The notes under the pieces were generated by a model, which ran no database searches, was not told where the DNA came from, and saw only the letters and a list, made by a program, of their open reading frames with translations. A program made the position numbers and the translations under genes. A stretch of 64,000 nt of DNA from Escherichia coli. GTDB lineage: Bacteria > Pseudomonadota > Gammaproteobacteria > Enterobacterales > Enterobacteriaceae. The stretch is taken from assembly GCF_009931435.1 (NCBI RefSeq), contig NZ_CP043414.1. One strand, given 5' to 3'. Positions 4,972 through 48,039 of the stretch are shown piece after piece. Every line of letters begins with the position of its first letter. The stretch's first letter is position 1.

Positions 4972-5071
<100 letters not shown>

Positions 5072-5106
5072 CTTGTGCCCCGAACGTTGAATGAATTGTG
5101 GTTCTT

Positions 5107-5883: not shown

Positions 5884-5887
5884 AATA

Positions 5888-5912: not shown

Positions 5913-5914
5913 CT

Positions 5915-6345: not shown

Positions 6346-6346
6346 G

Positions 6347-6372
6347 CCAAATTCGGCGGTTTTTTATTGCCT
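6347..6372. terminator. Bidirectional rho-independent terminator (aaaaaaccgccaaattcggcggttttttatt)
   Basis: GC stem flanked by A-run and T-run, 10 nt downstream of the sseA stop on the minus strand. Confidence 0.65.
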
Positions 6373-6381
6373 GTAAAAAGC

Positions 6382-7227: not shown

Positions 7228-7432
7228 AGGCATCTCCATTTTTGCCGGGTTAGGCTAAATTGTCGGATGTTTAGTGAAAAGCGACAAGCAAAAGAGGCTG
7301 ATTTGGCTGTCTGAGCCACAATTCTCACTAAAATTCGGATTCCATGGGCGCGATACTGAATTACATAACGTAAATTCTCACGCATAATAATTATTCGACG
7401 TTGCTAACGGGCCATTGTGGCAGGGATGAAAA

Positions 7433-10400
7433 ATGAAAAAGTTACGCGTAGCCGCCTGCATGCTAATGCTGGCGCTGGCAGGGTGCGACAACGACAACAA
7501 CGATAACGCGCCAACAGCGGTGAAAAAAGATGCACCTTCTGAAGTTACTAAAGCGGCATCTTCAGAAAACGCGAGTTCAGCAAAACTCTCTGCACCGGAG
7601 CGACAAAAACTGGCACAACAGAGTGCCGGTAAGGCGCTGACATTGCTGGATCTCTCTGAAGTCCAACTCGATGGCGCAGCCACGCTGGTGCTGACCTTCT
7701 CTATCCCTCTCGACCCGGATCAGGATTTCTCGCGCGTTATTCACGTCGTTGATAAAAAAAGCGGCAAAGTGGATGGGGCCTGGGAGCTGTCAGATAATCT
7801 TAAAGAGCTGCGTTTACGCCACCTCGAGCCGAAACGTGATTTGATCGTTACTATTGGCAAGGAGGTCAAGGCACTCAACAACGCAACCTTCAGTAAAGAT
7901 TACGAAAAAACTATAACTACCCGCGATATCCAGCCCAGCGTCGGTTTTGCCAGCCGTGGTTCGCTGCTGCCTGGAAAAGTCATTGAAGGGCTGCCGGTAA
8001 TGGCGCTCAATGTTAACAATGTCGATGTTAACTTCTTCCGTGTTAAGCCAGAATCTCTGCCAGCATTTATTAGCCAATGGGAATACCGAAATTCGCTGGC
8101 GAACTGGCAGTCAGACAAACTGCTGCAAATGGCGGATCTGGTTTATACCGGACGTTTTGATCTCAATCCTGCGCGTAACACCCGTGAAAAATTATTGCTG
8201 CCGCTGGGTGATATCAAACCGCTTCAGCAGGCGGGTGTGTATCTGGCTGTGATGAATCAGGCTGGACGTTACGATTACAGTAATCCCGCGACGCTGTTTA
8301 CATTAAGTGATATCGGCGTATCGGCCCACCGTTATCACAATCGTCTGGATATCTTTACCCAAAGCCTGGAAAACGGCGCGGCCCAGCAAGGAGTTGAAGT
8401 CTCATTATTAAATGAGAAAGGGCAGACTCTGACTCAGGCAACCAGTGATGCCCAGGGGCATGTGCAGCTGGAAAATGATAAAAACGCGGCATTACTGTTG
8501 GCGCGTAAAGACGGTCAGACAACGCTACTCGATTTAAAACTTCCGGCGCTGGACTTAGCAGAATTTAACATTGCTGGCGCGCCAGGCTATAACAAACAGT
8601 TTTTCATGTTTGGCCCGCGCGATCTTTATCGCCCGGGTGAAACAGTCATCCTTAATGGTTTATTGCGTGATGCAGACGGTAAAGCGTTGCCCGATCAACC
8701 CATCAAGCTGGACGTAATTAAACCCGACGGGCAGGTACTCAGGAGCGTCGTTAGTCAGCCGGAGAATGGCCTCTATCACTTTACGTGGCCACTCGATAGT
8801 AATGCGGCCACCGGCATGTGGCATATCCGAGCCAATACGGGCGATAACCAGTATCGGATGTGGGATTTCCACGTCGAAGATTTTATGCCAGAGCGTATGG
8901 CGCTGAATCTGACCGGTGAGAAAACCCCGCTAACGCCGAAAGATGAAGTGAAATTCTCCGTGGTGGGTTACTACCTGTACGGGGCGCCTGCTAATGGTAA
9001 TACTTTGCAAGGGCAACTTTTCCTGCGCCCACTGCGTGAAGCTGTGTCAGCCTTACCTGGTTTCGAATTCGGCGATATAGCTGCTGAAAACCTTTCGCGC
9101 ACGCTGGATGAAGTTCAGTTGACGCTGGATGATAAAGGGCGCGGCGAAGTTTCTACAGAAAGCCAGTGGAAGGAAACGCATTCCCCATTACAGGTTATTT
9201 TCCAGGGCAGTTTGCTGGAGTCTGGCGGTCGCCCGGTGACGCGCCGTGCTGAGCAGGCTATCTGGCCTGCCGATGCATTGCCGGGGATCCGTCCGCAATT
9301 CGCCTCGAAATCGGTTTACGATTATCGCACTGACAGTACGGTAAAACAGCCCATTGTTGATGAAGGCAGTAACGCCGCTTTCGACATCGTTTATAGCGAT
9401 GCACAGGGCGTCAAAAAAGCTGTGTCTGGCTTACAAGTGCGCCTGATTCGCGAACGCCGCGATTACTACTGGAACTGGTCAGAAGATGAAGGCTGGCAGT
9501 CACAGTTTGATCAAAAAGATCTGATCGAAAATGAACAAACACTGGATCTTCAGGCTGATGAAACCGGTAAAGTCAGTTTCCCGGTAGAGTGGGGCGCTTA
9601 TCGTCTGGAAGTCAAAGCGCCGAATGAAGCGGTCAGTAGTGTGCGTTTCTGGGCTGGCTATAGCTGGCAGGACAATAGCGACGGTAGCGGTGCTGTGCGA
9701 CCAGACCGTGTCACGCTGAAACTGGATAAAGCCAGTTATCGCCCTGGTGATACCATTAAGTTGCACATTGCCGCACCAACGGCGGGTAAAGGCTATGCGA
9801 TGGTCGAGTCCAGTGAAGGGCCGCTGTGGTGGCAGGAGATTGATGTTCCGGCACAAGGGCTGGATCTGACGATTCCGGTCGATAAAACCTGGAATCGTCA
9901 TGATCTTTATTTAAGTACGCTGGTGGTACGTCCTGGCGATAAATCTCGCTCCGCGACGCCAAAACGCGCAGTTGGCGTGTTGCATTTGCCGCTTGGCGAT
10001 GAAAACCGTCGTCTCGATCTGGCGCTGGAAACTCCAGCGAAAATACGCCCCAATCAGCCATTAACCGTGAAAATTAAAGCCAGCAATAAAAATGGTGAGA
10101 TGCCAAAACAGGTGAATGTGCTGGTGTCTGCGGTTGATAGCGGTGTGTTGAATATTACTGATTATGTCACGCCAGATCCGTGGCAGGCATTCTTTGGTCA
10201 GAAACGCTATGGCGCAGATATTTACGATATTTACGGTCAGGTCATTGAAGGTCAGGGGCGTCTGGCAGCTCTGCGTTTTGGTGGCGATGGTGATGAACTG
10301 AAACGCGGTGGTAAACCGCCAGTAAATCACGTCAATATTGTTGCGCAACAGGCGCTACCGGTAACACTCAACGAACAGGGCGAAGGCACGGTTACATTGC

Positions 10401-12400
10401 CGATTGGTGATTTTAACGGTGAATTGCGCGTCATGGCACAAGCATGGACGGCAGATGATTTCGGTAGCAACGAAAGCAAAGTGGTTGTTGCCGCACCGGT
10501 GATAGCAGAACTGAATATGCCGCGCTTTATGGCCAGCGGTGACACCTCACGTCTGACGCTGGATATCACTAATCTTACCGATAAACCGCAAAAACTGAAC
10601 GTTGCTCTGACCGCCAGTGGCTTGCTTGAACTGGTTAGCGATTCACCCGCAGCCGTTGAATTAGCGCCGGGCGTGCGAACCACGCTGTTTATCCCGGTGC
10701 GAGCATTGCCGGGTTATGGTGATGGTGAAATTCAGGCCACTATTAGCGGGTTAGCGTTACCGGGCGAAACCGCTGCCGATCAGCATAAGCAGTGGAAAAT
10801 GGGTGTCCGTCCGGCATTTCCGGCACAAACCGTCAATTACGGTACGGCGTTGCAGCCTGGTGAGACATGGGCGATTCCAGCTGATGGATTGCAAAACTTC
10901 TCGCCTGTTACGCTGGAAGGGCAATTGTTGTTGAGCGGCAAACCACCGTTGAATATTGCACGTTATATCAAAGAGTTAAAAGCGTATCCGTACGGTTGTC
11001 TGGAGCAAACCGCCAGCGGCCTGTTCCCGTCACTTTACACCAACGCAGCCCAACTGCAGGCGTTGGGAATCAAAGGCGACAGTGATGAGAAGCGCCGTAC
11101 GGCAGTCGATATCGGCATTTCTCGTTTACTGCAAATGCAACGTGATAACGGTGGCTTTGCGCTGTGGGATAAAAACGGTGATGAAGAGTACTGGCTGACG
11201 GCTTACGTGATGGATTTTCTGGTCCGCGCAGGTGAGCAGGGTTACAGCGTGCCGACAGAAGCCATTAACCGGGGGAATGAGCGTCTACTGCGCTATTTAC
11301 AAGATCCGGGCATGATGTCGATTCCGTATGCGGATAATCTCAAAGCCAGTAAATTCGCCGTACAGTCTTACGCTGCGCTGGTGCTGGCCCGTCAGCAAAA
11401 GGCACCGCTGGGTGCGCTGCGTGAAATCTGGGAGCATCGTGCCGATGCTGCGTCTGGATTACCGCTGCTGCAACTTGGCGTTGCGCTGAAAACCATGGGC
11501 GATGCAACGCGTGGTGAAGAAGCGATTGTGCTGGCGCTGAAAACGCCGCGCAATAGTGATGAGCGGATATGGCTGGGTGATTACGGAAGTCCACTGCGCG
11601 ACAACGCATTGATGCTCTCCTTGCTGGAAGAGAACAAATTGCTACCCGATGAGCAGTACCCTCTGCTGAACACACTTTCGCAGCAGGCGTTCGGTGAACG
11701 CTGGTTATCAACTCAGGAAAGTAACGCGCTGTTCCTGGCTGCCCGTACGATTCAGGATTTACCGGGCAAATGGCAGGCGCAAACGTCTTTCTCTGCTGAG
11801 CTGCTGACAGGTGAGAAAGCGCAAACCAGCAATCTGAATAGCGATCAACTTGCCACCTTACAGGTGACCAACAGTGGCGATCAGCCGTTATGGCTGCGTG
11901 TGGATGCCAGCGGATATCCGCAATCCGCCCCTTTACCGGCGAGCAATGTGCTGCAAATCGAGCGCCATATTCTTGGCACTGACGGTAAGAGCAAATCGCT
12001 GGATTCGTTACGTAGCGGCGATCTGGTACTGGTCTGGTTGCAGGTCAAAGCCAGTAACAGCGTGCCGGATGCTTTGGTCGTTGATTTACTGCCTGCTGGC
12101 CTGGAACTGGAAAACCAGAACCTGGCTAACGGCAGCGCCAGCCTGGAGCAAAGTGGTAGCGAAGTGCAAAACCTACTCAGTCAAATGCAACAAGCGAACA
12201 TTAAGCATATTGAGTTTCGTGACGATCGCTTTGTGGCGGCGGTTGCCGTTGATGAATATCAACCAGTCACGCTGGTGTATCTGGCGCGGGCGGTAACGCC
12301 GGGAACATACAATGTTCCGCAACCAATGGTGGAATCGATGTATGTTCCCCACTGGCGGGCGACTGGCGCGGCTGAAGATCTGTTGATTGTCAGACCGTAA
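7433..12400 (+). CDS. yfhM: Alpha-2-macroglobulin family lipoprotein YfhM (ECAM)
   Basis: 1655-aa ORF; lipoprotein signal with lipobox LAGC; intact thioester motif CLEQ (YPYGCLEQTASG, ~10997-11008); stop directly abuts pbpC start. Confidence 0.9.
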   Translation: MKKLRVAACMLMLALAGCDNDNNDNAPTAVKKDAPSEVTKAASSENASSAKLSAPERQKLAQQSAGKALTLLDLSEVQLDGAATLVLTFSIPLDPDQDFSRVIHVVDKKSGKVDGAWELSDNLKELRLRHLEPKRDLIVTIGKEVKALNNATFSKDYEKTITTRDIQPSVGFASRGSLLPGKVIEGLPVMALNVNNVDVNFFRVKPESLPAFISQWEYRNSLANWQSDKLLQMADLVYTGRFDLNPARNTREKLLLPLGDIKPLQQAGVYLAVMNQAGRYDYSNPATLFTLSDIGVSAHRYHNRLDIFTQSLENGAAQQGVEVSLLNEKGQTLTQATSDAQGHVQLENDKNAALLLARKDGQTTLLDLKLPALDLAEFNIAGAPGYNKQFFMFGPRDLYRPGETVILNGLLRDADGKALPDQPIKLDVIKPDGQVLRSVVSQPENGLYHFTWPLDSNAATGMWHIRANTGDNQYRMWDFHVEDFMPERMALNLTGEKTPLTPKDEVKFSVVGYYLYGAPANGNTLQGQLFLRPLREAVSALPGFEFGDIAAENLSRTLDEVQLTLDDKGRGEVSTESQWKETHSPLQVIFQGSLLESGGRPVTRRAEQAIWPADALPGIRPQFASKSVYDYRTDSTVKQPIVDEGSNAAFDIVYSDAQGVKKAVSGLQVRLIRERRDYYWNWSEDEGWQSQFDQKDLIENEQTLDLQADETGKVSFPVEWGAYRLEVKAPNEAVSSVRFWAGYSWQDNSDGSGAVRPDRVTLKLDKASYRPGDTIKLHIAAPTAGKGYAMVESSEGPLWWQEIDVPAQGLDLTIPVDKTWNRHDLYLSTLVVRPGDKSRSATPKRAVGVLHLPLGDENRRLDLALETPAKIRPNQPLTVKIKASNKNGEMPKQVNVLVSAVDSGVLNITDYVTPDPWQAFFGQKRYGADIYDIYGQVIEGQGRLAALRFGGDGDELKRGGKPPVNHVNIVAQQALPVTLNEQGEGTVTLPIGDFNGELRVMAQAWTADDFGSNESKVVVAAPVIAELNMPRFMASGDTSRLTLDITNLTDKPQKLNVALTASGLLELVSDSPAAVELAPGVRTTLFIPVRALPGYGDGEIQATISGLALPGETAADQHKQWKMGVRPAFPAQTVNYGTALQPGETWAIPADGLQNFSPVTLEGQLLLSGKPPLNIARYIKELKAYPYGCLEQTASGLFPSLYTNAAQLQALGIKGDSDEKRRTAVDIGISRLLQMQRDNGGFALWDKNGDEEYWLTAYVMDFLVRAGEQGYSVPTEAINRGNERLLRYLQDPGMMSIPYADNLKASKFAVQSYAALVLARQQKAPLGALREIWEHRADAASGLPLLQLGVALKTMGDATRGEEAIVLALKTPRNSDERIWLGDYGSPLRDNALMLSLLEENKLLPDEQYPLLNTLSQQAFGERWLSTQESNALFLAARTIQDLPGKWQAQTSFSAELLTGEKAQTSNLNSDQLATLQVTNSGDQPLWLRVDASGYPQSAPLPASNVLQIERHILGTDGKSKSLDSLRSGDLVLVWLQVKASNSVPDALVVDLLPAGLELENQNLANGSASLEQSGSEVQNLLSQMQQANIKHIEFRDDRFVAAVAVDEYQPVTLVYLARAVTPGTYNVPQPMVESMYVPHWRATGAAEDLLIVRP

Positions 12401-38880: not shown

Positions 38881-40458
38881 ATGACGGAAAACATTCATAA
38901 GCATCGCATCCTCATTCTGGACTTCGGTTCTCAGTACACCCAACTGGTTGCGCGCCGCGTGCGTGAACTGGGTGTTTACTGCGAACTGTGGGCGTGGGAT
39001 GTGACAGAAGCACAAATTCGTGACTTCAATCCAAGCGGCATTATTCTTTCCGGCGGCCCGGAAAGCACCACCGAAGAAAACAGCCCGCGTGCGCCGCAGT
39101 ATGTCTTTGAAGCAGGCGTACCGGTATTCGGCGTTTGCTATGGTATGCAGACCATGGCAATGCAGTTGGGTGGTCATGTTGAAGCCTCTAACGAACGTGA
39201 ATTTGGCTATGCGCAGGTTGAAGTCGTAAACGACAGCGCACTGGTTCGCGGTATCGAAGATGCTCTGACAGCAGACGGTAAACCTCTGCTCGATGTCTGG
39301 ATGAGCCACGGCGATAAAGTTACCGCTATCCCGTCCGACTTCATCACCGTAGCCAGCACCGAAAGCTGCCCGTTCGCCATCATGGCAAATGAAGAAAAAC
39401 GCTTCTATGGCGTACAGTTCCACCCGGAAGTGACTCATACCCGCCAGGGGATGCGCATGCTGGAGCGTTTTGTGCGTGATATCTGCCAGTGTGAAGCCCT
39501 GTGGACGCCAGCGAAAATTATCGACGATGCAGTAGCCCGTATCCGCGAGCAGGTAGGCGACGATAAAGTGATCCTCGGCCTCTCTGGTGGCGTGGATTCC
39601 TCCGTGACTGCAATGCTGCTGCACCGCGCAATCGGCAAAAACCTGACTTGCGTATTCGTTGACAACGGCCTGCTGCGTCTCAACGAAGCAGAGCAGGTTC
39701 TGGATATGTTTGGCGATCACTTTGGTCTGAACATTGTTCACGTTCCGGCAGAAGATCGCTTCTTGTCAGCGCTGGCTGGTGAAAACGATCCGGAAGCAAA
39801 ACGTAAAATCATCGGTCGCGTTTTCGTTGAAGTATTCGATGAAGAAGCGCTGAAACTGGAAGATGTGAAGTGGCTGGCGCAGGGTACTATCTACCCTGAT
39901 GTTATCGAATCTGCCGCGTCTGCAACCGGTAAAGCTCACGTCATCAAATCTCACCACAACGTGGGCGGCCTGCCGAAAGAGATGAAGATGGGCCTGGTTG
40001 AACCGCTGAAAGAGCTGTTCAAAGACGAAGTGCGTAAAATTGGTCTGGAGCTGGGCCTGCCGTACGACATGCTGTACCGTCACCCGTTCCCGGGACCAGG
40101 GCTTGGCGTTCGTGTGCTGGGCGAAGTGAAGAAAGAGTACTGCGACCTGCTGCGCCGTGCTGATGCCATCTTCATTGAAGAACTGCGTAAAGCGGACCTG
40201 TACGACAAAGTTAGCCAGGCGTTTACCGTGTTCCTGCCGGTACGTTCTGTTGGCGTAATGGGCGATGGTCGTAAATACGACTGGGTTGTGTCTCTGCGTG
40301 CCGTCGAAACCATCGACTTTATGACCGCACACTGGGCACATCTGCCGTACGATTTCCTTGGTCGCGTTTCCAACCGCATTATCAATGAAGTGAACGGTAT
40401 TTCCCGCGTGGTGTATGACATCAGCGGCAAGCCGCCAGCGACTATTGAGTGGGAGTAG
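38881..40458 (+). CDS. guaA: GMP synthase (glutamine-hydrolysing)
   Basis: 525-aa ORF; GATase motif GVCYGMQ; PP-loop SGGVDSSV; C-terminal ...PPATIEWE. Confidence 0.97.
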
Positions 40459-40503
40459 GACTGGCTATAAATAGTAAATTAAGCCTTTCCAACTAACTTT
40501 AAT

Positions 40504-40536
40504 GCCAGTCAGTTTGCTGACTGGCATTTTTTATTG
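40504..40536 (+). terminator. guaA rho-independent terminator (gccagtcagtttgctgactggc then attttttatt)
   Basis: Perfect hairpin plus T-tract 45 nt after guaA stop. Confidence 0.7.
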
Positions 40537-40604
40537 GTTTTTCATTGAGTTTATGACTTCTATTTTTAAGGCCGTAACTCTATAACATCGGCTATGGCCT
40601 AAAG

Positions 40605-40632
40605 ATAAAAGCCATTACCAACAAAATGGCGG
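40605..40632 (-). terminator. Probable minus-strand terminator downstream of the membrane receiver-like gene
   Basis: Minus-strand reading gccattttgttggtaatggc followed by ttttatcttt; lies about 120 nt downstream of the ORF ending at 40753. Confidence 0.45.
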
Positions 40633-40752
40633 TATTCCAAAACAGTCTAGCCGGAAGTGCTTACAATGAGATCGATCAAATCGACAAATGAGATACTGGC
40701 CGTTGTGAGCGCCCGGCAACCGTAGCCGTAGGGGGCGAATTTAATGGCTTTG

Positions 40753-41529
40753 TTATGAGCCATTGGTAATCGCACCCATGACAATTTGAAAGAGTTCTTC
40801 TGCTCGATTAGTGGAGCCAATTGCACCTCTTTCTCTCGCCATTCTCTTGTGCTCTGGTAGATCTGAGGACGCATAGATCATAAAAGGAGTTTTGTCTCCC
40901 ATTGCGCGTAATCTTTCTAGTAAGACATAACCTTCTTGCGCCCCTTCTTTGCGATCCATATCCGAAATAATAGCTGCAAACTTATTTGTTTTTAACAATT
41001 CCAAGGCTTCGTCAGTTGAAAGAGCTAAAGCGAACTCTATTCCCTGTGCCTCAAATGCCTGTCTTTCGTAAACATTATTTTCTGGTCGATCATCCACCCA
41101 TAAAATACGATTTCGCCATTTTTCATGCTTACTCTGCCGTTTTGCATTGGATACAACGTTGACGATTTTTTGCAGTTGGCTTTCAGTGACCCCTGCACTA
41201 TTTTCAGGCTGTTTTGCTGTGGCGGCGGTCAATGATGCTGCTGTAGCTATTTGCGCTCTTAAAAAATTATTTTCATCTTTGAAATCTGACGGCCCGTAAA
41301 GCTTATTATGATGTTTCGCAACAAGCCAGAGAAAGCCAAGAAACACAATGACAGGAAAGAAAACCATGAAATAAATAAGGGGAGCTATATGCTCTGATAA
41401 GCCATTACCAAAGCCAACGACGAAAGAGGCAAATCCATAAACGAGAACAATAAAGAGTGCAATGATACCAAGAGGGCTTTTGGTAAATCCTATTGCAGTT
41501 TCAGCAAATTTCTCTGGTTCCATATCCAT
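40753..41529 (-). CDS. Hypothetical membrane protein: two N-terminal TM helices plus a C-terminal CheY-like receiver-like domain (accessory gene, not in K-12 layout)
   Basis: 258-aa ORF; TM segments GIIALFIVLVYGFASFVVGF and IAPLIYFMVFFPVIVFLGFLWLV; C-terminal REC-like pattern ILWVDDRPENN / AAIISDMDR / TPFMIYASSD / GAIGSTNRAEEL with N/R where the conserved REC Lys is expected; AT-rich codon usage. Confidence 0.7.
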   Translation of the reverse strand: MDMEPEKFAETAIGFTKSPLGIIALFIVLVYGFASFVVGFGNGLSEHIAPLIYFMVFFPVIVFLGFLWLVAKHHNKLYGPSDFKDENNFLRAQIATAASLTAATAKQPENSAGVTESQLQKIVNVVSNAKRQSKHEKWRNRILWVDDRPENNVYERQAFEAQGIEFALALSTDEALELLKTNKFAAIISDMDRKEGAQEGYVLLERLRAMGDKTPFMIYASSDLPEHKRMARERGAIGSTNRAEELFQIVMGAITNGS

Positions 41530-41616
41530 CCTCAGTATTGCTCATAACACAGTTAAGTTGTATTAGATCAGACCTGATCTGACAATTACCGGCTATTTAT
41601 AAAGGTATCTGTCAGA

Positions 41617-42012
41617 TTACATCTGGCTTAAGTTTTTCTCATCCCAGATGTGCTTTCCATCAAGTAACGTTTCCATCGGCGTTCGGCCACTGCACATTTT
41701 TCCCTGATGGGTTCGCTCATTATTATAGTGAACCCGCCATTCATCAAGAACCGATTGTAATGCTTCAAGATCATCATATAACTTTTTGCGGAACGTCACC
41801 TGATAAAACTCGTTCAGTATCGTTTTATGGAACTGCTCGCAGATACTATTGGTCTTAGATGACATTGCTTTCGTTTTCGTATGCTCAATATCATTTATCG
41901 CCAGATAAAGCTGGTAATCATGCTGCTCCACTTTACCGCAATCTCTTGGTGTATTGAGAGGCGGGTTATAAAATAAATACTGATACCATGAGGGCGGATC
42001 AATCGTGGTCAT
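41617..42012 (-). pseudogene. Truncated DDE (rve-type) transposase, C-terminal fragment only: IS remnant
   Basis: 131-aa ORF with integrase-core C-terminal signatures NSICEQFHKTILNEF and WRVHYNNERTHQG...GRTP; upstream DD catalytic region and DNA-binding N-terminus are absent. Confidence 0.6.
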
Positions 42013-42027
42013 AGTATCAGGTCATTC

Positions 42028-43542
42028 TCATGGGTTTATTGCGTCCCTGAAGATGACGTCGCTGACCATCTCTCCTCCAAGAAAATCGATCAACATATTC
42101 GAGTTTTCAAGGTCTTCTCTGGTCAATGCCCCGATTGCTTGTCCAACTACTACCTCCCAAGGTTTTTTACACTCAACAATAGCACAGACGAGTTGGCGGA
42201 TTTTCTTGATCTTCTTGTGACGCAATCGGTCGTTCGATTCCATTAGTTCTGCAATCAACGCTATGTCGGAGTGTGTTTGATTATCCTCAACCCATTTTTT
42301 GGCTGCGTCTACAAATTCCACCCATGTAACATTCATTACTGCAAGGCATGAATCAGTCAAAAGAACATTTTCGATAGCGTAGCATCGTAAGCGATAGCGT
42401 TTAAGAGGTAGGCGATGTTCAAGCGACTTGTTGATTACACCATCGCCATCACGAAGGGAAAAGGCGATTGGATTGTCATAGAGTGTACTAAGGAGGTCTA
42501 CGCAAAAATCCTCAAGTTGACTCTGTTGATCTACGCTACCTGCTAGTACGGGAAAGATTTTTATTCGACCCTGTGATGTTCTGGCCGCTTGTTGCCAGAC
42601 TCGTTCGTCGTCCTCTCCTTCCAAAATTAATGCAGCGTCTTCGCTAAGAGAAAGCGATAGGGGGTGCCCGAAGAATGGTGCAATCTTTCGAAGTTCATCG
42701 CTGGCCGGTATCAATGAGATTTCATTTACTGCAAAGCTCTTCGTGCCGATTGATACATATGGGGAGGCGGCAAGAGAACAGACGAGCGGGGAACTATGGG
42801 TGGATAAGCATATGGCAATACTGTTCGCGTGTGTTCTAAATTCGTCGAGCATACTGATTATCAGCTTGCCCAGTCTAGCTTGGAGGTCGGGGTGCAGATG
42901 TACATCAGGCTCATCGAGGAGGAGTACGTTGAATTTCTCCGGATCTATTGTGTCGAAGAAATAGATGATTTCCGCGGCTAATGCAACCGCTTCCGATTCA
43001 CCGCTACTGATTTGGGCCGGATCAATAATCTGACCATCTACAAGTGATCGAAACTCATAATCGACATTACCCATCTCGAGCGAAATGTTAGTGAGAAGCT
43101 GATTAATTTTACTTAATCGGTCTGTCTGAAAGTTTCGCGTTAGATCAGTTCGAATTTCCGGAGTATTGGCAAGTCGACGTAAGTAAAGCGTCTCGGCCTC
43201 GCGAAATAGCATAGCCGATGCAGCTTTGAAGTTGCTTGCCTGATTAACTGCCCGAGTGTGCCTCAGCCATTCGGGGTTGTCGCTCATATTTGTGAGGACG
43301 GTGCCATCACGCTTGAACGATCCTGCTCGCTCTGGACTTACATACCGGACATAAAATTGCTGCTTGTTCTGGCTGATTGTTTGTTCGATATCGCGAAGGA
43401 AACGACTTTTTCCCGCACCGTTTCGGCCCATAATTATGTTGATGTTGTTTAAGCCGTAAAGTCGGCCAATTTGGCTAGATAACTCGCTTACTTTCAAGAT
43501 TGTAACTCCATTTCTTGTTGCCACATACGGTAACAAATACAC
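42028..43542 (-). CDS. OLD-family-like ATPase-nuclease (ABC-type ATPase fused to TOPRIM-like domain); accessory gene
   Basis: 504-aa ORF with GTG start at 43542; Walker A GRNGAGKS (43405-43428), ABC-signature-like ISSGES, Walker B/D-loop VLLLDEPDVHLHP, H-loop STHS; C-terminal TOPRIM-like LILEGEDDE (~42610-42630) and RDGDG (~42440-42454). Confidence 0.75.
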   Translation of the reverse strand: MYLLPYVATRNGVTILKVSELSSQIGRLYGLNNINIIMGRNGAGKSRFLRDIEQTISQNKQQFYVRYVSPERAGSFKRDGTVLTNMSDNPEWLRHTRAVNQASNFKAASAMLFREAETLYLRRLANTPEIRTDLTRNFQTDRLSKINQLLTNISLEMGNVDYEFRSLVDGQIIDPAQISSGESEAVALAAEIIYFFDTIDPEKFNVLLLDEPDVHLHPDLQARLGKLIISMLDEFRTHANSIAICLSTHSSPLVCSLAASPYVSIGTKSFAVNEISLIPASDELRKIAPFFGHPLSLSLSEDAALILEGEDDERVWQQAARTSQGRIKIFPVLAGSVDQQSQLEDFCVDLLSTLYDNPIAFSLRDGDGVINKSLEHRLPLKRYRLRCYAIENVLLTDSCLAVMNVTWVEFVDAAKKWVEDNQTHSDIALIAELMESNDRLRHKKIKKIRQLVCAIVECKKPWEVVVGQAIGALTREDLENSNMLIDFLGGEMVSDVIFRDAINP

Positions 43543-43573
43543 TAACTGAATAGGTGCGTTGATGCCTCATTTT

Positions 43574-43606
43574 GTTCACATCTATGTTGAAATTAGTGAT
43601 GTGAAC
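43574..43606. promoter_or_regulatory. 9-bp perfect inverted repeat (gttcacatc N15 gatgtgaac) upstream of the ATPase gene: candidate operator
   Basis: Read directly: gttcacatc at 43574-43582 and gatgtgaac at 43598-43606, 32-64 nt upstream of the GTG start at 43542. Confidence 0.35.
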
Positions 43607-43802
43607 GAGCTAAGGACTCTATTAGGAGTAGAGCGGCCATATTGTTCGTCTGAACAGCCTGTAGACAGCTCTATTATTGAGACATGGTATTTTTCGTGGT
43701 ATCTGCTAAGTAGTTTGTTTCAAGGCATTGATTTATTTATATTTTATTTTCTCATTGATAGCTGAGTGGGAATGATTTGATCCCTGCACTATGAATTAGC
43801 AA

Positions 43803-43835
43803 AACCCTCTGTTACTACAGAGGGTTTTTTATACT
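43803..43835. terminator. Hairpin (aaaccctctgttactacagagggtttttt) downstream of yfgI at the right edge of the insertion
   Basis: 10-bp stem with T-run on the plus strand and TTTTGC on the minus strand; 34 nt beyond the yfgI stop. Confidence 0.5.
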
Positions 43836-43868
43836 CACGAATCATAGGATTGAAGTTACTGACATCGC

Positions 43869-44408
43869 TTAGTTAAACCAGCTGTCCGATTTGTTCTCTT
43901 CTGCTTTGCCCACGCTTTTCATCAGATCGCGACCGCCTTCAGTCATATTCCTGTTTGCGTCAGCTTCAGATTGCACCACATCGGTTTGCGCAGCTTTGTG
44001 CTTCAGTTCCTGATCGATAAATTCGTTTTCTCGCTTAACGCGGGCTTCTTCTTTCGCCAGCGCCAGTTTTTGTTTCTGAATCTCTAAGCTGCGTAGCTCA
44101 TCTTCATAACTTTGATCGCGTTTCTTGTCCGCAGTGGCTTCGGCGTCCAGTTTATCCTGACGAGCTTTCTTATTTGCCGCTGCCGTTGCCGCTCTTTTGT
44201 TAGCGGCGGCCTGGGCGTTTGCGCGACGTTGCTTCTCTTGCTGGATTTCCCTGTTGCGCTCCGCGACCCATTCGTCATGCTGCCTTTGCTCTTCATTTTT
44301 ACCTTGCTGTTCCGCTTCTGCGACAGCAGAGAGTTGATCCTGCAATGATGAGGCGATAGCCGGATAGCTTAAGGAGGCTAAGATGGCGCAAAGAAAAACT
44401 TTCTTCAT
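43869..44408 (-). CDS. yfgI: YfgI (secreted/periplasmic coiled-coil protein)
   Basis: 179-aa ORF with signal peptide MKKVFLCAILASLSYPAIA and charged low-complexity body; conserved position relative to yfgH. Confidence 0.8.
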   Translation of the reverse strand: MKKVFLCAILASLSYPAIASSLQDQLSAVAEAEQQGKNEEQRQHDEWVAERNREIQQEKQRRANAQAAANKRAATAAANKKARQDKLDAEATADKKRDQSYEDELRSLEIQKQKLALAKEEARVKRENEFIDQELKHKAAQTDVVQSEADANRNMTEGGRDLMKSVGKAEENKSDSWFN

Positions 44409-44423
44409 GACTCCTCCTGATTA

Positions 44424-44942
44424 TTAGCTCTTTTCAGGACATTTGGTATTTGGCTGAATACGCGTTTCGTTATACGTCGTGGTAATAACAACGGCTAAAC
44501 CTGTCGTAAACTGGCACTCTTTACCCACCTGGGTGGAGGTATACACTTTGGTGCCTTCCTTATACGTTAGAGAAACACCTTCCACTAAGGTTTTATCATT
44601 CACCATAGAACCTGCTGCCGCGCCAACAGCTCCGCCGCCAACTGCACCTGCCGTCGTTCCGGAATTGCTGCCAGACCCCACGTTGTGGCCGATAACACCG
44701 CCAGCGACTGCACCAATAAGCGCGCCGAAGGCTTGTGCGTTTCGTTTATTTTGGGAGTTGTCTACGGCAACTTTTGCGGGAAGAATGGAAATAATATTAA
44801 CGGTTTTAGTTTCTTGTTTGGTATTCAGTTGATCGGTTTGATAAACATCGGCGGCATGATCATCAGCATTTGACTGGCATCCTGCCAGAGTGAATGACGC
44901 TAACATTGCCACAGGCAGAAGACATTTTTTAAATTTCATCAC
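44424..44942 (-). CDS. yfgH: YfgH outer-membrane lipoprotein (glycine-zipper family)
   Basis: 172-aa ORF; lipobox LAGC; glycine-zipper GALIGAVAGGVIGHNVGSG...GAVGGGAVGAAAG. Confidence 0.8.
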   Translation of the reverse strand: MMKFKKCLLPVAMLASFTLAGCQSNADDHAADVYQTDQLNTKQETKTVNIISILPAKVAVDNSQNKRNAQAFGALIGAVAGGVIGHNVGSGSNSGTTAGAVGGGAVGAAAGSMVNDKTLVEGVSLTYKEGTKVYTSTQVGKECQFTTGLAVVITTTYNETRIQPNTKCPEKS

Positions 44943-45252
44943 TATTCCTTGTTATACACATTACGAAAAATAAGACATTTAAGATCATCAAAAGAGGAAA
45001 GTAAATGTATTGCGTATAAAGGAATAGATTAAATTTATTAAAATTCATGTGGAAAATAATTTATAAAAATACATCATTAAAACATATGTATTAATTTTAT
45101 ATTTATTTCGCAGCCAAACAGGATAAACATCAGTCAGGACAAAGACGTAAAATTTAAGATGAAAGAATATCTGCCGCTTTGATAATCTCAAAGAGCAACT
45201 GCATCCGACAGCGAGGTGCCGTTATGTTCAGTGAAGGTGGAGAAGGTAACCG

Positions 45253-45444
45253 CTAACGTTGTACCGGTGATTCGACGGAGAGTGTGGATTGTTGAGCTTC
45301 TTTTTTGCTCTGATGGTGCTGCCAGGCACCGACGGACGAGTAGATAAAGCGGCCAAAGAAGAAGATAAAGCTGATGAGCAGTACGATACGGGTCATGCGA
45401 CTGTTAAATCGGTGTCGTTTTCGCATACTGGTTGCCTGACTCAC
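45253..45444 (-). CDS. yfgG: YfgG small membrane protein
   Basis: 63-aa ORF with one hydrophobic helix (IVLLISFIFFFGRFIY); conserved position between yfgH and pdeF. Confidence 0.65.
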   Translation of the reverse strand: MSQATSMRKRHRFNSRMTRIVLLISFIFFFGRFIYSSVGAWQHHQSKKEAQQSTLSVESPVQR

Positions 45445-45795
45445 AAAAGGTTCCTTGAAGTATGTCCCACGCCGTGGACGGTACTTACATTAAGGCACAA
45501 CAGGACAAAATGGTCAATTCTTCGTTATGTAAAAAAGCGTCAGTGGATACATATTTTAATGTTATGGAAGTTAATTTAATTATTTACAATGATGATGTAA
45601 TAATGATGAATTAACATGATAAACGTAATAATTCATTAATCAGGGTTATTTTGTTTGATATATATCAATTGGAACTTTCATATGACACTTAGAATCAATG
45701 CTCTCTATAGTGATGAATAATCATCATTCGAAGTCAGGTGGGATGCCTGTCTGAATACACCTCCTTCACGATGTGGGGGATTCTGCTGAGCATCT

Positions 45796-48039
45796 ATGAA
45801 ACTGAATGCAACCTATATAAAAATACGTGATAAATGGTGGGGGCTTCCGCTGTTCCTGCCTTCTTTCATCTTGCCCATTTTCGCCCATATTAATACTTTC
45901 GCGCATATTTCTTCCGGTGAGGTTTTTCTCTTTTACCTGCCTTTGGCACTGATGATCAGCATGATGATGTTTTTCAGCTGGGCGGCATTGCCAGGGATCG
46001 CCTTAGGGATTTTTGTCCGCAAATATGCAGAGCTGGGTATTTACGAAACGCTCTCATTAACAGCTAATTTTATTATCATTATCATTCTCTGTTGGGGCGG
46101 TTACAGGGTCTTTACTCCCCGGCGTAACAACGTTTCACATGGTGATACCCGTTTAATTGCCCAGCGTATATTCTGGCAGATTGTATTTCCTGCAACGCTG
46201 TTTCTAATACTTTTCCAATTTGCTGCGTTTGTTGGATTACTGGCGAGCAGAGAAAATCTGGTCGGCGTCATGCCTTTTAACCTCGGGACCTTAATCAATT
46301 ATCAGGCCTTACTGGTGGGCAATCTGATTGGTGTTCCGCTGTGCTACTTCATCATTCGGGTGGTGCGAAATCCGTTTTATTTACGCAGCTATTATTCGCA
46401 ATTAAAACAGCAAGTTGATGTCAAAGTCACCAAAAAAGAGTTCGCGCTCTGGCTACTGGCATTAGGTGCGTTGTTGTTGCTGTTATGCATGCCGTTAAAT
46501 GAAAAAAGCACGATTTTCAGCACCAATTATACCTTGTCATTATTGCTACCCCTGATGATGTGGGGAGCCATGCGCTATGGTTATAAGTTGATTTCGCTGC
46601 TCTGGGCGGTCGTGCTGATGATCAGCATCCACAGCTATCAAAATTACATTCCCATTTATCCTGGCTATACCACGCAACTGACCATAACCTCCTCCAGTTA
46701 TCTGGTATTCTCTTTTATTGTCAATTATATGGTTGTACTGGCAACCCGTCAGCGAGCGGTAGTCAGACGCATTCAGCGGCTTGCGTATGTGGACCCGGTG
46801 GTTCATCTGCCAAATGTTCGCGCCCTGAATCGCGCGTTGCGTGATGCCCCCTGGTCTGCGCTTTGTTATTTACGCATCCCCGGCATGGAAATGCTGGTTA
46901 AGAACTATGGCATCATGCTACGGATTCAATACAAGCAAAAACTTTCTCACTGGCTGTCACCATTGCTGGAACCGGGTGAAGATGTTTATCAGCTTTCGGG
47001 TAACGATCTCGCGCTGCGACTGAATACAGAATCGCACCAGGAGCGCATTACCGCACTGGATAGCCATCTCAAGCAATTTCGTTTCTTTTGGGATGGAATG
47101 CCGATGCAACCGCAGATTGGCGTCAGTTACTGCTATGTGCGCTCGCCAGTGAATCATATCTACTTACTGCTGGGAGAGCTAAATACGGTCGCCGAACTTT
47201 CCATCGTGACCAACGCCCCGGAAAATATGCAGCGTCGCGGGGCAATGTATTTGCAACGCGAATTGAAAGATAAAGTCGCGATGATGAATCGGCTACAGCA
47301 GGCGCTGGAACACAACCATTTTTTCCTGATGGCCCAGCCGATTACCGGTATGCGTGGTGATGTCTACCATGAGATCCTTCTGCGCATGAAAGGTGATAAT
47401 GATGAACTGATCAGCCCCGACAGCTTCTTGCCGGTCGCGCACGAATTTGGTTTATCGTCGAGTATCGACATGTGGGTCATTGAGCATACGCTGCAATTTA
47501 TGGCTGAAAACAGAGCGAAGATGCCCGCTCACCGTTTTGCGATTAATCTGTCGCCAACCTCGGTATGTCAGGCTCGTTTTCCCGTTGAAGTCAGTCAGCT
47601 GCTGGCTAAATACCAGATTGAAGCGTGGCAACTTATTTTTGAAGTCACCGAAAGTAATGCGCTGACCAATGTTAAGCAGGCGCAAATCACCTTGCAGCAT
47701 CTTCAGGAATTAGGCTGCCAGATTGCGATTGATGATTTCGGCACCGGCTACGCCAGCTATGCGCGGCTTAAAAATGTGAATGCCGATCTCCTTAAAATTG
47801 ACGGCAGTTTTATCCGCAATATTGTGTCAAATAGTCTGGATTACCAGATAGTGGCGTCGATTTGTCACCTGGCGCGAATGAAGAAAATGCTGGTAGTGGC
47901 AGAGTACGTTGAAAACGAAGAGATCCGCGAGGCGGTGCTTTCTTTAGGGATAGATTATATGCAGGGTTATCTTATTGGTAAGCCGCAACCGTTAATTGAT
48001 ACGCTGAATGAAATCGAACCCATTCGCGAAAGTGCCTGA
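45796..48039 (+). CDS. pdeF: Cyclic-di-GMP phosphodiesterase PdeF (YfgF): MASE1 membrane domain, degenerate GGDEF, EAL
   Basis: 747-aa ORF; multi-TM N-terminus; no intact GG(D/E)EF (SGNDL at expected place); EAL-domain motifs EVTES and DDFGTGYAS. Confidence 0.85.
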   Translation: MKLNATYIKIRDKWWGLPLFLPSFILPIFAHINTFAHISSGEVFLFYLPLALMISMMMFFSWAALPGIALGIFVRKYAELGIYETLSLTANFIIIIILCWGGYRVFTPRRNNVSHGDTRLIAQRIFWQIVFPATLFLILFQFAAFVGLLASRENLVGVMPFNLGTLINYQALLVGNLIGVPLCYFIIRVVRNPFYLRSYYSQLKQQVDVKVTKKEFALWLLALGALLLLLCMPLNEKSTIFSTNYTLSLLLPLMMWGAMRYGYKLISLLWAVVLMISIHSYQNYIPIYPGYTTQLTITSSSYLVFSFIVNYMVVLATRQRAVVRRIQRLAYVDPVVHLPNVRALNRALRDAPWSALCYLRIPGMEMLVKNYGIMLRIQYKQKLSHWLSPLLEPGEDVYQLSGNDLALRLNTESHQERITALDSHLKQFRFFWDGMPMQPQIGVSYCYVRSPVNHIYLLLGELNTVAELSIVTNAPENMQRRGAMYLQRELKDKVAMMNRLQQALEHNHFFLMAQPITGMRGDVYHEILLRMKGDNDELISPDSFLPVAHEFGLSSSIDMWVIEHTLQFMAENRAKMPAHRFAINLSPTSVCQARFPVEVSQLLAKYQIEAWQLIFEVTESNALTNVKQAQITLQHLQELGCQIAIDDFGTGYASYARLKNVNADLLKIDGSFIRNIVSNSLDYQIVASICHLARMKKMLVVAEYVENEEIREAVLSLGIDYMQGYLIGKPQPLIDTLNEIEPIRESA

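What the first reader, a model, noticed from the sequence alone, without database searches (positions are those of the whole stretch)
42028..43542. 504-aa ABC-ATPase fused to TOPRIM-like domain (OLD-family architecture), apparently without a helicase or separate nuclease partner
Seen in sequence: Walker A GRNGAGKS, signature-like ISSGES, Walker B VLLLDEPDVHLHP and H-loop STHS, followed by LILEGEDDE and about 55 aa later RDGDG, the order and spacing expected for a TOPRIM glutamate and DxD metal site. Established knowledge: this ATPase-then-TOPRIM order defines OLD-family nucleases. Inference: class assignment is open; it could be a single-gene OLD, an orphaned Gabija GajA-like gene (no UvrD-like GajB is adjacent), or a compact fused PARIS-like protein. 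The start codon is GTG at 43542, so the true start may differ.
Basis: partly seen in the sequence, partly recalled or inferred. Interest (0 to 1): 0.7.

Follow-up and report, generated by a model that had tools for sequence, protein, structure and literature searches.

The report
Compact single-gene PARIS-like ATPase–nuclease
This is an intact gene for one protein that joins an ATP-driven switch to a metal-dependent nuclease; it is an untested, unusually small relative of the PARIS and OLD anti-phage suicide nucleases, and it works without a partner gene.

Summary
The ORF is real and intact. Its start is almost certainly TTG at 43497 (489 aa), not GTG at 43542.

The protein has a minimal ABC ATPase (aa 1-265) with all catalytic motifs. 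This is fused to a TOPRIM domain (aa 286-381; E293, D350xD352, E376-N377) and a helical tail.

It belongs to a distinct family of about 485-aa fusion proteins found across Bacteria and in a few Archaea:
- E293, D350, D352 and K30 are invariant down to 25% identity.
- dN/dS is 0.05-0.14.
- No neighbouring gene is conserved across 65 loci, and there is no GajB/UvrD helicase, so it is a single-gene module.

By structure it is OLD-superfamily: GajA and the retron Eco8 OLD nuclease are the top matches. By sequence its closest relatives are PARIS proteins:
- The C-terminal domain alone hits only AriB.
- DUF4435 matches 8 of 76 members; OLD-like_TOPRIM matches 1 of 76.
- hhalign against a merged AriAB gives E 9e-20, with E/DxD/EN aligned.

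It is about 200 aa shorter than known AriAB and lacks AriA's inserts. No PADLOC model covers its full length.

Distant members lie inside or beside restriction-modification and Dsr1-like loci.

Most likely it is a self-contained abortive-infection nuclease. This is a new variant of a known kind, of moderate interest.

The parts
42028..43497 (-). Coding sequence of the 489-aa ABC-ATPase-TOPRIM fusion protein (TTG start at 43497-43495; stop at 42030-42028)
   Evidence: ORF. PGAP annotates a 489-aa 'AAA family ATPase' WP_000868467.1. The TTG start is conserved in 8 taxa. Homologues are 480-495 aa. dN/dS is 0.05-0.14.
43506..43509 (-). Shine-Dalgarno GGAG, 8 nt upstream of the TTG start
   Evidence: Read from the sequence. 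It is invariant in five gamma-proteobacterial loci. A purine-rich equivalent is present in three further taxa.
43498..43790 (-). Conserved non-coding leader of about 290 nt that travels with the gene.
   Evidence: Nucleotide identity is 67-85% among E. coli, Klebsiella, Serratia, Enterobacter and Pseudomonas, although dS of the CDS is saturated. Indels are not multiples of three and the ORFs are broken. There is no covariation support and no Rfam match.
42703..43497 (-). Minimal ABC ATPase domain (aa 1-265), with only about 100 aa of helical insert between the Q-loop region and the signature motif
   Evidence: Pfam AAA_15, AAA_21 and ABC_tran. The PDB profile search ranks AriA first at 1.2e-15. 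AF2 secondary structure.
43405..43428 (-). Walker A GRNGAGKS (K30 and S31 invariant)
42994..43011 (-). ABC signature motif ISSGES (S164 invariant)
42904..42927 (-). Walker B and D-loop VLLLDEPD (D195 and P197 invariant; catalytic E196 conserved in at least 90%)
42793..42804 (-). H-loop STHS (H234 and S235 invariant)
42355..42642 (-). TOPRIM nuclease domain of AriB/DUF4435 type (aa 286-381). Strands are 288-292, 314-318, 345-349 and 365-369.
   Evidence: AF2 model. PADLOC AriB 1.1e-5 for the C-terminal part alone. DUF4435 matches 8 of 76 members. hhalign against merged AriAB.
42619..42621 (-). Invariant TOPRIM glutamate E293 (in LILEGEDDE)
42442..42450 (-). Invariant DxD metal-binding motif D350-G-D352
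42367..42372 (-). E376-N377 ('IEN' motif). It is near-invariant and aligns with the 'LENY' motif of merged AriAB.
42031..42354 (-). C-terminal all-helical domain (aa 382-489), family-specific
   Evidence: The AF2 model has helices 382-487 at pLDDT above 90. No significant PDB sequence match.

Best explanation
The gene encodes a self-contained, single-polypeptide immune nuclease of the OLD/PARIS superfamily. A minimal ABC ATPase head, the sensor and switch, is fused to an AriB-type (DUF4435-like) TOPRIM two-metal nuclease and a helical tail.

Shown here:
- Both active sites are intact and invariant across the family.
- The fusion is the universal state of the family.
- There is no conserved partner gene.
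- The gene is under strong purifying selection.
- It sits in a horizontally acquired islet at the guaA 3' end.
- Distant members lie inside or beside restriction-modification and Dsr1-like loci.

Inferred by analogy with PARIS (AriA/AriB) and P2 Old:
- In uninfected cells the ATPase holds the nuclease inactive within a dimer or higher oligomer.
- A phage-derived trigger, either a protein such as an anti-restriction factor or an aberrant nucleic-acid structure, changes the ATP-dependent conformation and exposes the TOPRIM site.
- The nuclease then cuts host tRNA (or another nucleic acid). Translation and growth stop, and the infection is aborted.

The protein lacks the roughly 190-aa inserts that let AriA form its hexameric cage. 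Its gating must therefore be intramolecular or within a small homo-oligomer, not by release of a separate AriB.

The conserved weak TTG start and the conserved 290-nt leader suggest tightly limited expression of a potentially toxic protein.
For: Architecture and catalytic residues:
- Motifs and domains.
- K30, D195, H234, E293, D350 and D352 are invariant in 76 sequences down to 25% identity.

OLD-superfamily fold:
- Foldseek: GajA and retron Eco8 OLD nuclease at 4.5e-8, with alignments spanning both domains.

PARIS affinity:
- The PDB profile search ranks AriA first, 1.2e-15.
- PADLOC AriA 3e-15 and fused AriAB 2.7e-14, the latter spanning aa 85-396 of the 504-aa ORF as first called from GTG 43542.
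- The C-terminal domain alone hits only AriB, 1.1e-5.
- AriAB is the top PADLOC hit for three of six distant members tested.
- DUF4435 matches 8 of 76 members at E<=1e-3; OLD-like_TOPRIM matches 1 of 76.
- hhalign of the family against a bona fide merged AriAB (itself 2.3e-59 to the AriAB model) gives 8.8e-20 with E, DxD and EN aligned. P2 Old gives 1.6e-10. The C-terminal profile finds AriAB (4.7e-5) but not Old.

Single-gene status: no conserved neighbour in 65 loci.

Defence context:
- One member is embedded between hsdS and hsdR of a type I R-M operon, next to a HEC-05/GmrSD-like gene (L035).
- One is appended to a type I R-M operon (L030).
- Others sit next to a type IIG R-M gene (L073), a type III methyltransferase (L032) and a Dsr1-like gene (L047).
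- Serine recombinases occur in 6 loci.

This window:
- The gene lies in a 3.3-kb islet present in 27 of 5,426 complete E. coli genomes.
- The islet's left boundary is 4 nt before the guaA stop.

Selection: dN/dS is 0.05-0.14.

Precedents:
- AriB cleaves tRNA after release from AriA (PMC11464382, PMC12409363).
- P2 Old is reported to be a tRNase (bioRxiv 10.64898/2026.07.10.737580).
- The 490-aa single-gene ABC ATPase-TOPRIM HEC-04 defends E. coli and needs both its Walker A and its E/DxD residues (bioRxiv 10.1101/2024.01.29.577857).
Against: - No member of this family has been tested. No paper mentions WP_000868467.
- This protein's own DUF4435 score is 11.4 bits (E 0.28), below the 27-bit rule used to define PARIS (PMC9122126).
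- The C-terminal profile does not retrieve the solved AriB chain by sequence.
- A domain-only structural comparison with AriB could not be run.
- Its best PADLOC hit is the ATPase part of a candidate family, PDC-M01A. No model covers it end to end.
- It was not found on any phage or true plasmid record, unlike PARIS, which often rides on satellites.
- The very high conservation (66-94% identity across proteobacterial classes) is unusual for arms-race genes.
- The defence neighbours were examined in a few loci chosen for their large neighbouring genes, not systematically.
- Substrate, trigger and oligomeric state are all inferred.
Confidence: 0.6

Rival explanations
1. It is a Class 1 OLD-type enzyme acting on DNA. 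On this reading it is a stand-alone ATPase-TOPRIM that nicks or degrades phage or plasmid DNA, like Thermus scotoductus OLD or the Vibrio cholerae Class 1 OLD nickase, rather than a PARIS-like tRNase.
For: - It is a single gene with no partner, which is the operational definition of Class 1 (PMC10568477).
- The full-length structural matches are OLD-type nucleases.
- hhalign against P2 Old gives 1.6e-10 with the TOPRIM glutamate aligned.
- A DNA-nicking Class 1 OLD that defends V. cholerae has been described (PMC12392090, abstract seen).
Against: - The C-terminal profile does not find P2 Old.
- OLD-like_TOPRIM matches only 1 of 76 members.
- The PADLOC 'Old' model is not among the top hits.
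- The closest relatives whose similarity extends into the TOPRIM are AriAB-like.
- P2 Old itself is now reported to be a tRNase, which blurs the DNA-versus-RNA distinction between these two readings.
Confidence: 0.2
2. It is not an anti-phage gene. On this reading it is a conserved ATPase-nuclease with a cellular or element-maintenance role, for example a stabilising addiction function for islets at integration hotspots, or a housekeeping role like the archaeal OLD-family ATPase Cran1.
For: - Sequence conservation is unusually high and dN/dS is low across distant taxa.
- The position at the distal edge of guaA-linked islets is fixed in six genera.
- It is absent from the phage and plasmid collections.
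- An OLD-family ATPase with a non-defence role exists (PMC12796447, abstract seen).
Against: - The distribution is patchy: 0.5% of complete E. coli genomes carry it, so it is not essential.
- Several members are embedded in R-M or defence loci.
- The nearest characterised relatives are all immune nucleases.
Confidence: 0.1
3. It is half of a two-gene system with the adjacent membrane-anchored receiver-domain protein (40753-41529). That protein would sense a signal and control the nuclease.
For: The two genes are adjacent and co-oriented in this window and in Klebsiella aerogenes. The whole islet is 91% identical between the two.
Against: - The receiver gene is absent next to the ATPase gene in Serratia, Enterobacter, Pseudomonas, Vreelandella, Mesorhizobium and about 60 other loci.
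- It is itself a widespread stand-alone family found without the ATPase.
- A transposase fragment lies between the two genes.
Confidence: 0.03
4. It is an orphaned Gabija GajA that has lost its GajB helicase.
For: GajA is the top Foldseek hit, and GajA HMMs match at 1e-10.
Against: - GajA HMM matches cover only the ATPase.
- No UvrD-like gene occurs in any of 65 family loci.
- The protein is about 90-190 aa shorter than GajA, judged from chain and model lengths.
- The model shows no helical insert in the TOPRIM.
- AriAB and AriB score better on the nuclease domain.
Confidence: 0.02

Closest known systems
Merged PARIS (single-gene AriAB; PADLOC PDLC02981/02982; 'merged 1/2' clades of Burman et al. 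2024)
   Same: - One polypeptide with an AAA_15/AAA_21-type ABC ATPase followed by a DUF4435-type TOPRIM.
- The E, DxD and (I/L)EN motifs align.
- It is the best profile-profile match (8.8e-20) and the top PADLOC hit for several family members.
   Different: - The family is about 485 aa, against AriAB models of about 570-694 positions.
- Only 44% of the AriAB model is matched.
- The ATPase inserts are missing.
- The DUF4435 score of this protein is below threshold.
- The C-terminal helical domain is family-specific.
- Whether merged AriAB itself has been tested functionally was not established here.
PARIS two-gene system (AriA + AriB, E. coli B185; PDB 8UX9, 8V45)
   Same: - The nuclease domain matches the AriB model.
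- The expected logic is the same: an ATPase sensor gating a TOPRIM effector.
   Different: - Here there is one gene, not two.
- AriA residues 58-303 correspond to only about 55 residues here. The IS1, IS2 and coiled-coil elements that build the AriA hexamer are therefore absent.
- The effector cannot be released as a free AriB dimer.
- It is not carried on a P4-like satellite.
Class 1 OLD nucleases (P2 Old, Thermus scotoductus OLD 6P74, V. cholerae OLD)
   Same: - Single gene, with an N-terminal ABC ATPase and a C-terminal TOPRIM.
- Same overall fold.
- hhalign against P2 Old gives 1.6e-10.
   Different: - It is about 40-100 aa shorter.
- OLD-like_TOPRIM (PF20469) is essentially not matched.
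- The C-terminal profile does not find P2 Old.
- The DxD region does not align with P2 Old.
HEC-04 (Payne et al. 2024 preprint; PADLOC PDLC04149)
   Same: - A 490-aa single-gene ABC ATPase-TOPRIM from E. coli.
- The spacing of Walker A, TOPRIM Glu and DxD is almost identical (K62/E319/D375,D377 versus K30/E293/D350,D352).
- It is experimentally shown to defend and to need both active sites.
   Different: - It is a different family. HEC-04 hits its own model at 3.7e-192, and that model is not among the top hits of the target.
- hhalign similarity is limited to the ATPase (7.4e-10).
- The PADLOC search with the target's C-terminal part alone returned AriB as its only hit, not HEC-04.
Gabija GajA (Class 2 OLD) and retron Eco8 OLD nuclease (Class 3)
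   Same: These are the top structural matches covering both domains.
   Different: - They need partners (GajB helicase; reverse transcriptase plus ncRNA) that are absent from all family loci.
- They are larger proteins.
- Sequence similarity is confined to the ATPase and the TOPRIM glutamate.

Membership tests
OLD superfamily (ABC ATPase + TOPRIM nucleases, all classes) | N-terminal ABC-type ATPase with Walker A, signature, Walker B and H-loop | tested here: met
   All motifs are present and invariant in the family. Pfam AAA_15, AAA_21 and ABC_tran match. The structure matches ABC heads.
OLD superfamily (ABC ATPase + TOPRIM nucleases, all classes) | C-terminal TOPRIM domain with a conserved Glu and a DxD metal site | tested here: met
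   E293 and D350xD352 are invariant. The AF2 model shows a four-stranded beta-alpha unit. Foldseek alignments to GajA and the Eco8 OLD nuclease span both domains. An isolated-domain structural superposition could not be run.
Class 1 OLD (P2 Old type) | Stand-alone gene without a conserved partner | tested here: met
   No neighbour family is shared by more than 6 of 65 loci, and those shared are recombinases.
Class 1 OLD (P2 Old type) | OLD-type TOPRIM sequence family (Pfam PF20469; PADLOC 'Old' model) | tested here: not met
   PF20469 matches 1 of 76 members. 'Old' is not among the target's top PADLOC hits. The C-terminal profile does not align to the P2 Old TOPRIM.
Class 1 OLD (P2 Old type) | Dimerisation domain inserted in the ATPase | tested here: inconclusive
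   The model shows only a helical insert of about 100 aa (aa 60-160). Whether it mediates dimerisation cannot be told from a monomer model.
Gabija GajA (Class 2 OLD) | Adjacent UvrD/PcrA-like helicase GajB | tested here: not met
   It is absent in the window and in all 65 family loci.
PARIS (AriA/AriB or merged AriAB) | AAA_15 or AAA_21 ATPase above the published thresholds (32 and 27 bits; PMC9122126) | tested here: met
   AAA_15 scores 41.5 bits and AAA_21 38.3 bits.
PARIS (AriA/AriB or merged AriAB) | DUF4435 (PF14491) domain at 27 bits or more | tested here: not met
   This protein scores 11.4 bits (E 0.28). At family level 8 of 76 members reach E<=1e-3 and 20 of 76 reach E<=0.1. PADLOC AriB matches the C-terminal part at 1.1e-5. 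The relationship is supported, but the formal threshold is not reached.
PARIS (AriA/AriB or merged AriAB) | Full-length match to a merged AriAB model | tested here: inconclusive
   PDLC02981 matches at 2.7e-14 and 50.8 bits, but covers only model positions 220-523 of 694. That score lies between the two published score cut-offs for fused proteins (80 and 20 bits; PMC9122126). Which profile PADLOC's model corresponds to is unknown.
PARIS (AriA/AriB or merged AriAB) | AriA insert sequences and coiled coil that build the hexameric scaffold | tested here: not met
   The AriA region 58-303 corresponds to about 55 residues here. The ATPase is 265 aa, against 464 aa for AriA.
PARIS (AriA/AriB or merged AriAB) | Activation by anti-restriction proteins (Ocr, Ptr) and cleavage of the tRNA anticodon stem | not testable with these tools
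   This requires phage assays and tRNA sequencing.
HEC-04 | Match to the HEC-04 HMM (PDLC04149) | tested here: not met
   It is not among the target's top 25 PADLOC hits (lowest listed E 3e-9). The PADLOC search with the C-terminal part alone returned only AriB. hhalign similarity covers only the ATPase.
ABC transporter NBD / RecF-SMC housekeeping ATPases | Score above curated family cut-offs; transporter or DNA-repair gene context | tested here: not met
   All NCBIfam transporter, FtsE and ABC-F matches score 15-27 bits against cut-offs of 190-480. There is no permease or repair context.

The most novel reading that the evidence does not exclude
The family may be a minimal PARIS. It would be a roughly 485-aa protein that has kept the AriA-like ATPase core and the AriB-like nuclease but lost the inserts that build the AriA hexamer cage. 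Sensing and release of the nuclease would then happen within one chain or a small homo-oligomer. Dosage would be held down by a conserved TTG start and a conserved 290-nt leader. If so, this would be the simplest natural version of the ABC-ATPase-gated tRNase logic. It would be widespread from Proteobacteria to candidate-phyla bacteria, and probably missed or mislabelled by current defence finders.
Probability: 0.35. Interest if true: 0.6.

Novelty: new variant of a known kind. Interest (0 to 1): 0.45.

Why it matters
ABC-ATPase-gated TOPRIM nucleases (OLD, Gabija, PARIS, retron effectors) are a major theme in bacterial immunity. How the ATPase senses infection and unleashes the nuclease is known for only a few large multi-subunit examples.

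A compact, partner-free version with both sites invariant would be a tractable minimal model for that coupling, because it is small enough for straightforward biochemistry and structure work.

It would also add a widespread family to defence-system catalogues. In the search of 50%-identity cluster representatives, 148 matched at E<=1e-30, across many phyla. At present these genes are annotated only as 'AAA family ATPase' or even as a transporter ATPase.

If instead it turns out not to be a defence gene, its extreme conservation and its fixed position at guaA-linked islets would need another explanation.

Tried and rejected
1. Orphaned GajA and a two-gene system with the neighbouring response regulator were both rejected by the neighbourhood survey of 65 loci plus five close-relative loci.

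2. ABC transporter or RecF/SMC: scores are far below the curated cut-offs.

3. HEC-04 membership looked tempting because of the identical size and motif spacing. It was rejected by HMM and hhalign.

4. Sequence search of the PDB with the C-terminal-domain profile, and with a merged-AriAB C-terminus, to reach the solved AriB chain. Neither gave a meaningful hit, so a direct comparison with canonical AriB was not obtained.

5. PHROGs: only uncharacterised ATPase families match, and nothing matches the C-terminal domain.

6. Phage and plasmid collections:
   - There was no phage hit.
   - The single 'plasmid' hit is a 4.9-Mb record, evidently a chromosome.

7. Direct or inverted repeats flanking the islet (possible att sites): only short, chance-level matches.

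8. Conserved leader:
   - Tested for Rfam families, consensus structure and small ORFs, all negative.
   - Promoter-like sites in 40400-43900 numbered 4, fewer than in shuffled sequence (mean 8.0), and none lay within the leader (43498-43790) itself.

9. The first AlphaFold run, with 26 close homologues, gave a poor TOPRIM region (pLDDT 73). It was superseded by the 76-sequence run.

10. Six attempts at a third fold search (afdb50 or viral) failed for technical reasons.
Full report
**Setting.** The window is Escherichia chromosome: xseA, guaB, guaA, then yfgI, yfgH, yfgG, pdeF, ppx and ppk. In most E. coli genomes guaA is followed directly by yfgI. Here a 3.3-kb islet lies between them. It carries three things:
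- a 258-aa membrane-anchored receiver-domain protein (40753-41529, minus strand);
- the C-terminal fragment of an IS481-type transposase (41617-42012);
- the ORF in question.

The same islet, at 99.3% identity, is present in 27 of 5,426 complete E. coli genomes. There PGAP calls the ORF a 489-aa 'AAA family ATPase', WP_000868467.1. Similarity to islet-free genomes ends 4 nt before the guaA stop codon.

The start codon needs correcting. The ORF can be extended to GTG 43542, but several lines point to TTG 43497:
- the PGAP annotation;
- the narrow length range of homologues, 480-495 aa;
- a TTG preceded by a GGAG-like ribosome-binding site, conserved in E. coli, Klebsiella, Serratia, Enterobacter, Pseudomonas, Vreelandella, Mesorhizobium and Rhodoplanes.

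I use the 489-aa numbering below.

**The family.**
- A word-indexed search found 856 homologues. The best 120 share 66-99% identity although they come from Enterobacteriaceae, Pseudomonas and many alpha-proteobacteria.
- An exhaustive search of 50%-identity cluster representatives found 613 at E<=1e-3 and 148 at E<=1e-30. Nearly all are full-length, 470-500 aa, and align from about residue 12 to about 480.
- A scan of one genome per species returned about 65 full-length loci. They come from Proteobacteria, Bacteroidota, Cyanobacteria, Chloroflexi, Actinomycetota, Verrucomicrobia, Acidobacteria, candidate-phyla bacteria and a Micrarchaeota archaeon.
- In a 76-sequence alignment reaching 25% identity the invariant residues are K30, S31, R57, S164, D195, P197, Q206, H234, S235, E293, D350 and D352. 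E196, E376 and N377 are conserved in at least 90%.
- Both the ATPase and the nuclease sites are therefore under selection.
- dN/dS against six to seven orthologues is 0.05-0.14. dS is saturated between E. coli and Pseudomonas.

**Structure.** The first AlphaFold run, with close homologues only, was mediocre (pLDDT 73). With the 76-sequence alignment the model reached pLDDT 93.5 and pTM 0.81. It shows four parts:
- an ABC head (aa 1-265) with only about 100 residues of helical insert;
- a short linker;
- a beta-alpha-beta-alpha-beta-beta-alpha unit (aa 286-381), with E293 after strand 1 and D350xD352 after strand 3, which is the TOPRIM topology;
- a helical bundle (aa 382-489).

**Which branch of the superfamily.** Sequence evidence consistently favours PARIS.
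- The family profile finds AriA as the best solved chain (1.2e-15), ahead of retron PtuA-type ATPases and GajA.
- In PADLOC the target hits PDC-M01A (ATPase part only), then AriA (3e-15). It also hits the fused AriAB model at 2.7e-14, a match that runs from the ATPase into the nuclease.
- For three of six distant family members AriAB is the top hit, up to 6.5e-27.
- The C-terminal 224 residues alone hit exactly one PADLOC model, AriB (1.1e-5).
- Scanning each of 76 members against Pfam, DUF4435 is found in 8 at E<=1e-3 and in 20 at E<=0.1. OLD-like_TOPRIM is found in 1 and 3 respectively.
- Outgroup proteins came from the genome scan. Those whose similarity to the query extends through the TOPRIM are themselves AriAB-like, and one of them matches the AriAB model at 2.3e-59.
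- hhalign of the family against that protein gives 99.2% probability and E 8.8e-20, with the Glu, the DxD and the (I/L)EN motif aligned.
- Against P2 Old it gives 1.6e-10, with the DxD region unaligned.
- The C-terminal profile alone finds AriAB (4.7e-5) but not P2 Old.

**Limits of the PARIS assignment.**
- This protein's own DUF4435 score (11.4 bits) is below the 27-bit rule used to define PARIS (PMC9122126).
- Only 44% of the AriAB model is covered.
- The C-terminal profile does not retrieve the solved AriB chain.
- The ATPase is about 200 residues shorter than AriA. AriA residues 58-303 correspond to about 55 residues here. The insert sequences and coiled coil that build the AriA hexamer (PMC11464382) are therefore absent.

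**Partners.** ORFs were clustered from all fetched loci.
- No neighbour family occurs in more than 6 of about 65 loci. The one that occurs in 6 is a set of serine recombinases.
- There is no UvrD-like helicase, no separate DUF4435 gene and no reverse transcriptase.
- The receiver-domain gene next to the ORF is shared only with Klebsiella aerogenes, where the whole islet is 91% identical.
- That gene is itself a widespread stand-alone family found elsewhere without the ATPase.

The gene is a single-gene module.

**Context.** Several distant members lie in defence loci:
- L035 sits between hsdS and hsdR of a type I restriction-modification operon, next to a HEC-05/GmrSD-like gene.
- L030 follows hsdR-hsdM-hsdS.
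- L073 follows a type IIG enzyme.
- L032 follows a type III methyltransferase.
- L047 follows a Dsr1-like protein.

These loci were picked because they had large neighbouring genes. They show association but not a measured enrichment.

The close clade (at least 80% identity) always sits at the far edge of a variable islet downstream of guaA, convergent with guaA. This holds in E. coli, Klebsiella, Serratia, Enterobacter, Pseudomonas aeruginosa and Vreelandella. In some P. aeruginosa strains a conjugative element is inserted between the gene and guaA.

No copy was found on a phage or a true plasmid.

**Mechanism.** The following is shown:
- an intact, selected ATPase;
- an intact, selected two-metal TOPRIM site;
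- obligate fusion of the two;
- no partner gene;
- horizontal mobility;
- some defence-locus embedding.

The rest is inferred from relatives. In PARIS, AriA cages AriB until a phage anti-restriction protein binds. Released AriB then cuts tRNA-Lys, Thr and Asn (PMC11464382, PMC12409363). P2 Old is reported to be an auto-inhibited tetramer that becomes a tRNase on sensing DNA structures (bioRxiv 10.64898/2026.07.10.737580). HEC-04 is an unrelated-in-sequence but equally compact 490-aa ABC ATPase-TOPRIM from E. coli. It protects against phages and needs both its Walker A lysine and its E/DxD residues (bioRxiv 10.1101/2024.01.29.577857).

I therefore propose a self-gated abortive-infection nuclease, most likely an RNase acting on tRNA. 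DNA cleavage is the main alternative.

**Comparison and novelty.** The protein works like, and is related to, merged PARIS. Genetically it fits the Class 1 OLD definition. It fails formal membership tests for PF20469/Old, for GajA and for HEC-04. It only partly meets those for PARIS. No PADLOC 2.0 model covers it end to end, and no paper in the library mentions it. I class it as a new variant of a known kind: plausible and testable, but not surprising to a specialist.

Noticed in passing
window 43498-43790 (minus strand): A leader of about 290 nt upstream of the gene is 67-85% identical among E. coli, Klebsiella, Serratia, Enterobacter and Pseudomonas, although synonymous sites of the gene are saturated between E. 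coli and Pseudomonas. It is non-coding (frames are broken and indels are not multiples of three). It has no Rfam match and no covariation-supported structure. Its function is unknown; it may be regulatory.
   Followed up: partly
window 43495-43497 and homologous loci L005, L006, L008, L009, L010, L091, L093: The start codon is TTG in all eight taxa examined, from Enterobacteria to alpha-proteobacteria. A conserved weak start suggests that low expression is selected, as would be expected for a potentially toxic nuclease.
   Followed up: partly
window 40753-41529 (minus strand): The 258-aa 'response regulator' has an N-terminal membrane segment and a receiver domain but no output domain. It belongs to a large, very conserved family of 256-aa stand-alone proteins (67-99% identity in Klebsiella, Dickeya, Vibrio, Pseudomonas, Acidithiobacillus and others). 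These sit in variable regions beside toxin-antitoxin genes and IS elements. Its function is unknown, and it is not linked to the ATPase gene.
   Followed up: partly
window 41617-42012 (minus strand): This is the C-terminal fragment (131 aa) of an IS481-type transposase, starting 15 nt after the ATPase stop codon. The same fragment, with the same 499-bp gap between the ATPase and receiver genes, is present in Klebsiella aerogenes (L008). It is therefore an old part of the islet, not a recent insertion.
   Followed up: partly
window 40454-40530; loci L002-L005, L009, L091, L093: The 3' end of guaA is an insertion hotspot in several genera.
- Similarity to islet-free E. coli ends 4 nt before the guaA stop.
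- The strong terminator hairpin after guaA (40501-40528) is islet sequence.
- Between guaA and the ATPase gene, Serratia carries a HipA-like kinase plus unknown genes.
- Enterobacter carries a 302-aa unknown protein there.
- Some P. aeruginosa strains carry a whole conjugative element there, with Trb/VirB genes and a 1,341-aa HTH-STAND NTPase.
No integrase or att repeats were found in the window.
   Followed up: partly
window 40000-47000: The drop in G+C to 0.42-0.45 is not confined to the islet. It continues through the core genes yfgI, yfgH, yfgG and the start of pdeF, so low G+C alone does not mark the foreign segment here.
   Followed up: no
locus L035 (Flavobacteriaceae MAG) 3176-12386: This type I restriction-modification operon has two genes embedded between hsdS and hsdR: a member of this ATPase-TOPRIM family and a DUF262/GmrSD-like (HEC-05-like) gene. 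It is a compact example of defence genes nested within an R-M operon.
   Followed up: partly
PLSDB record NZ_CP134663.1 (hit H38): The only 'plasmid' carrying the gene is a 4.9-Mb record typed as non-mobilizable. It is evidently a chromosome filed as a plasmid in that collection.
   Followed up: no
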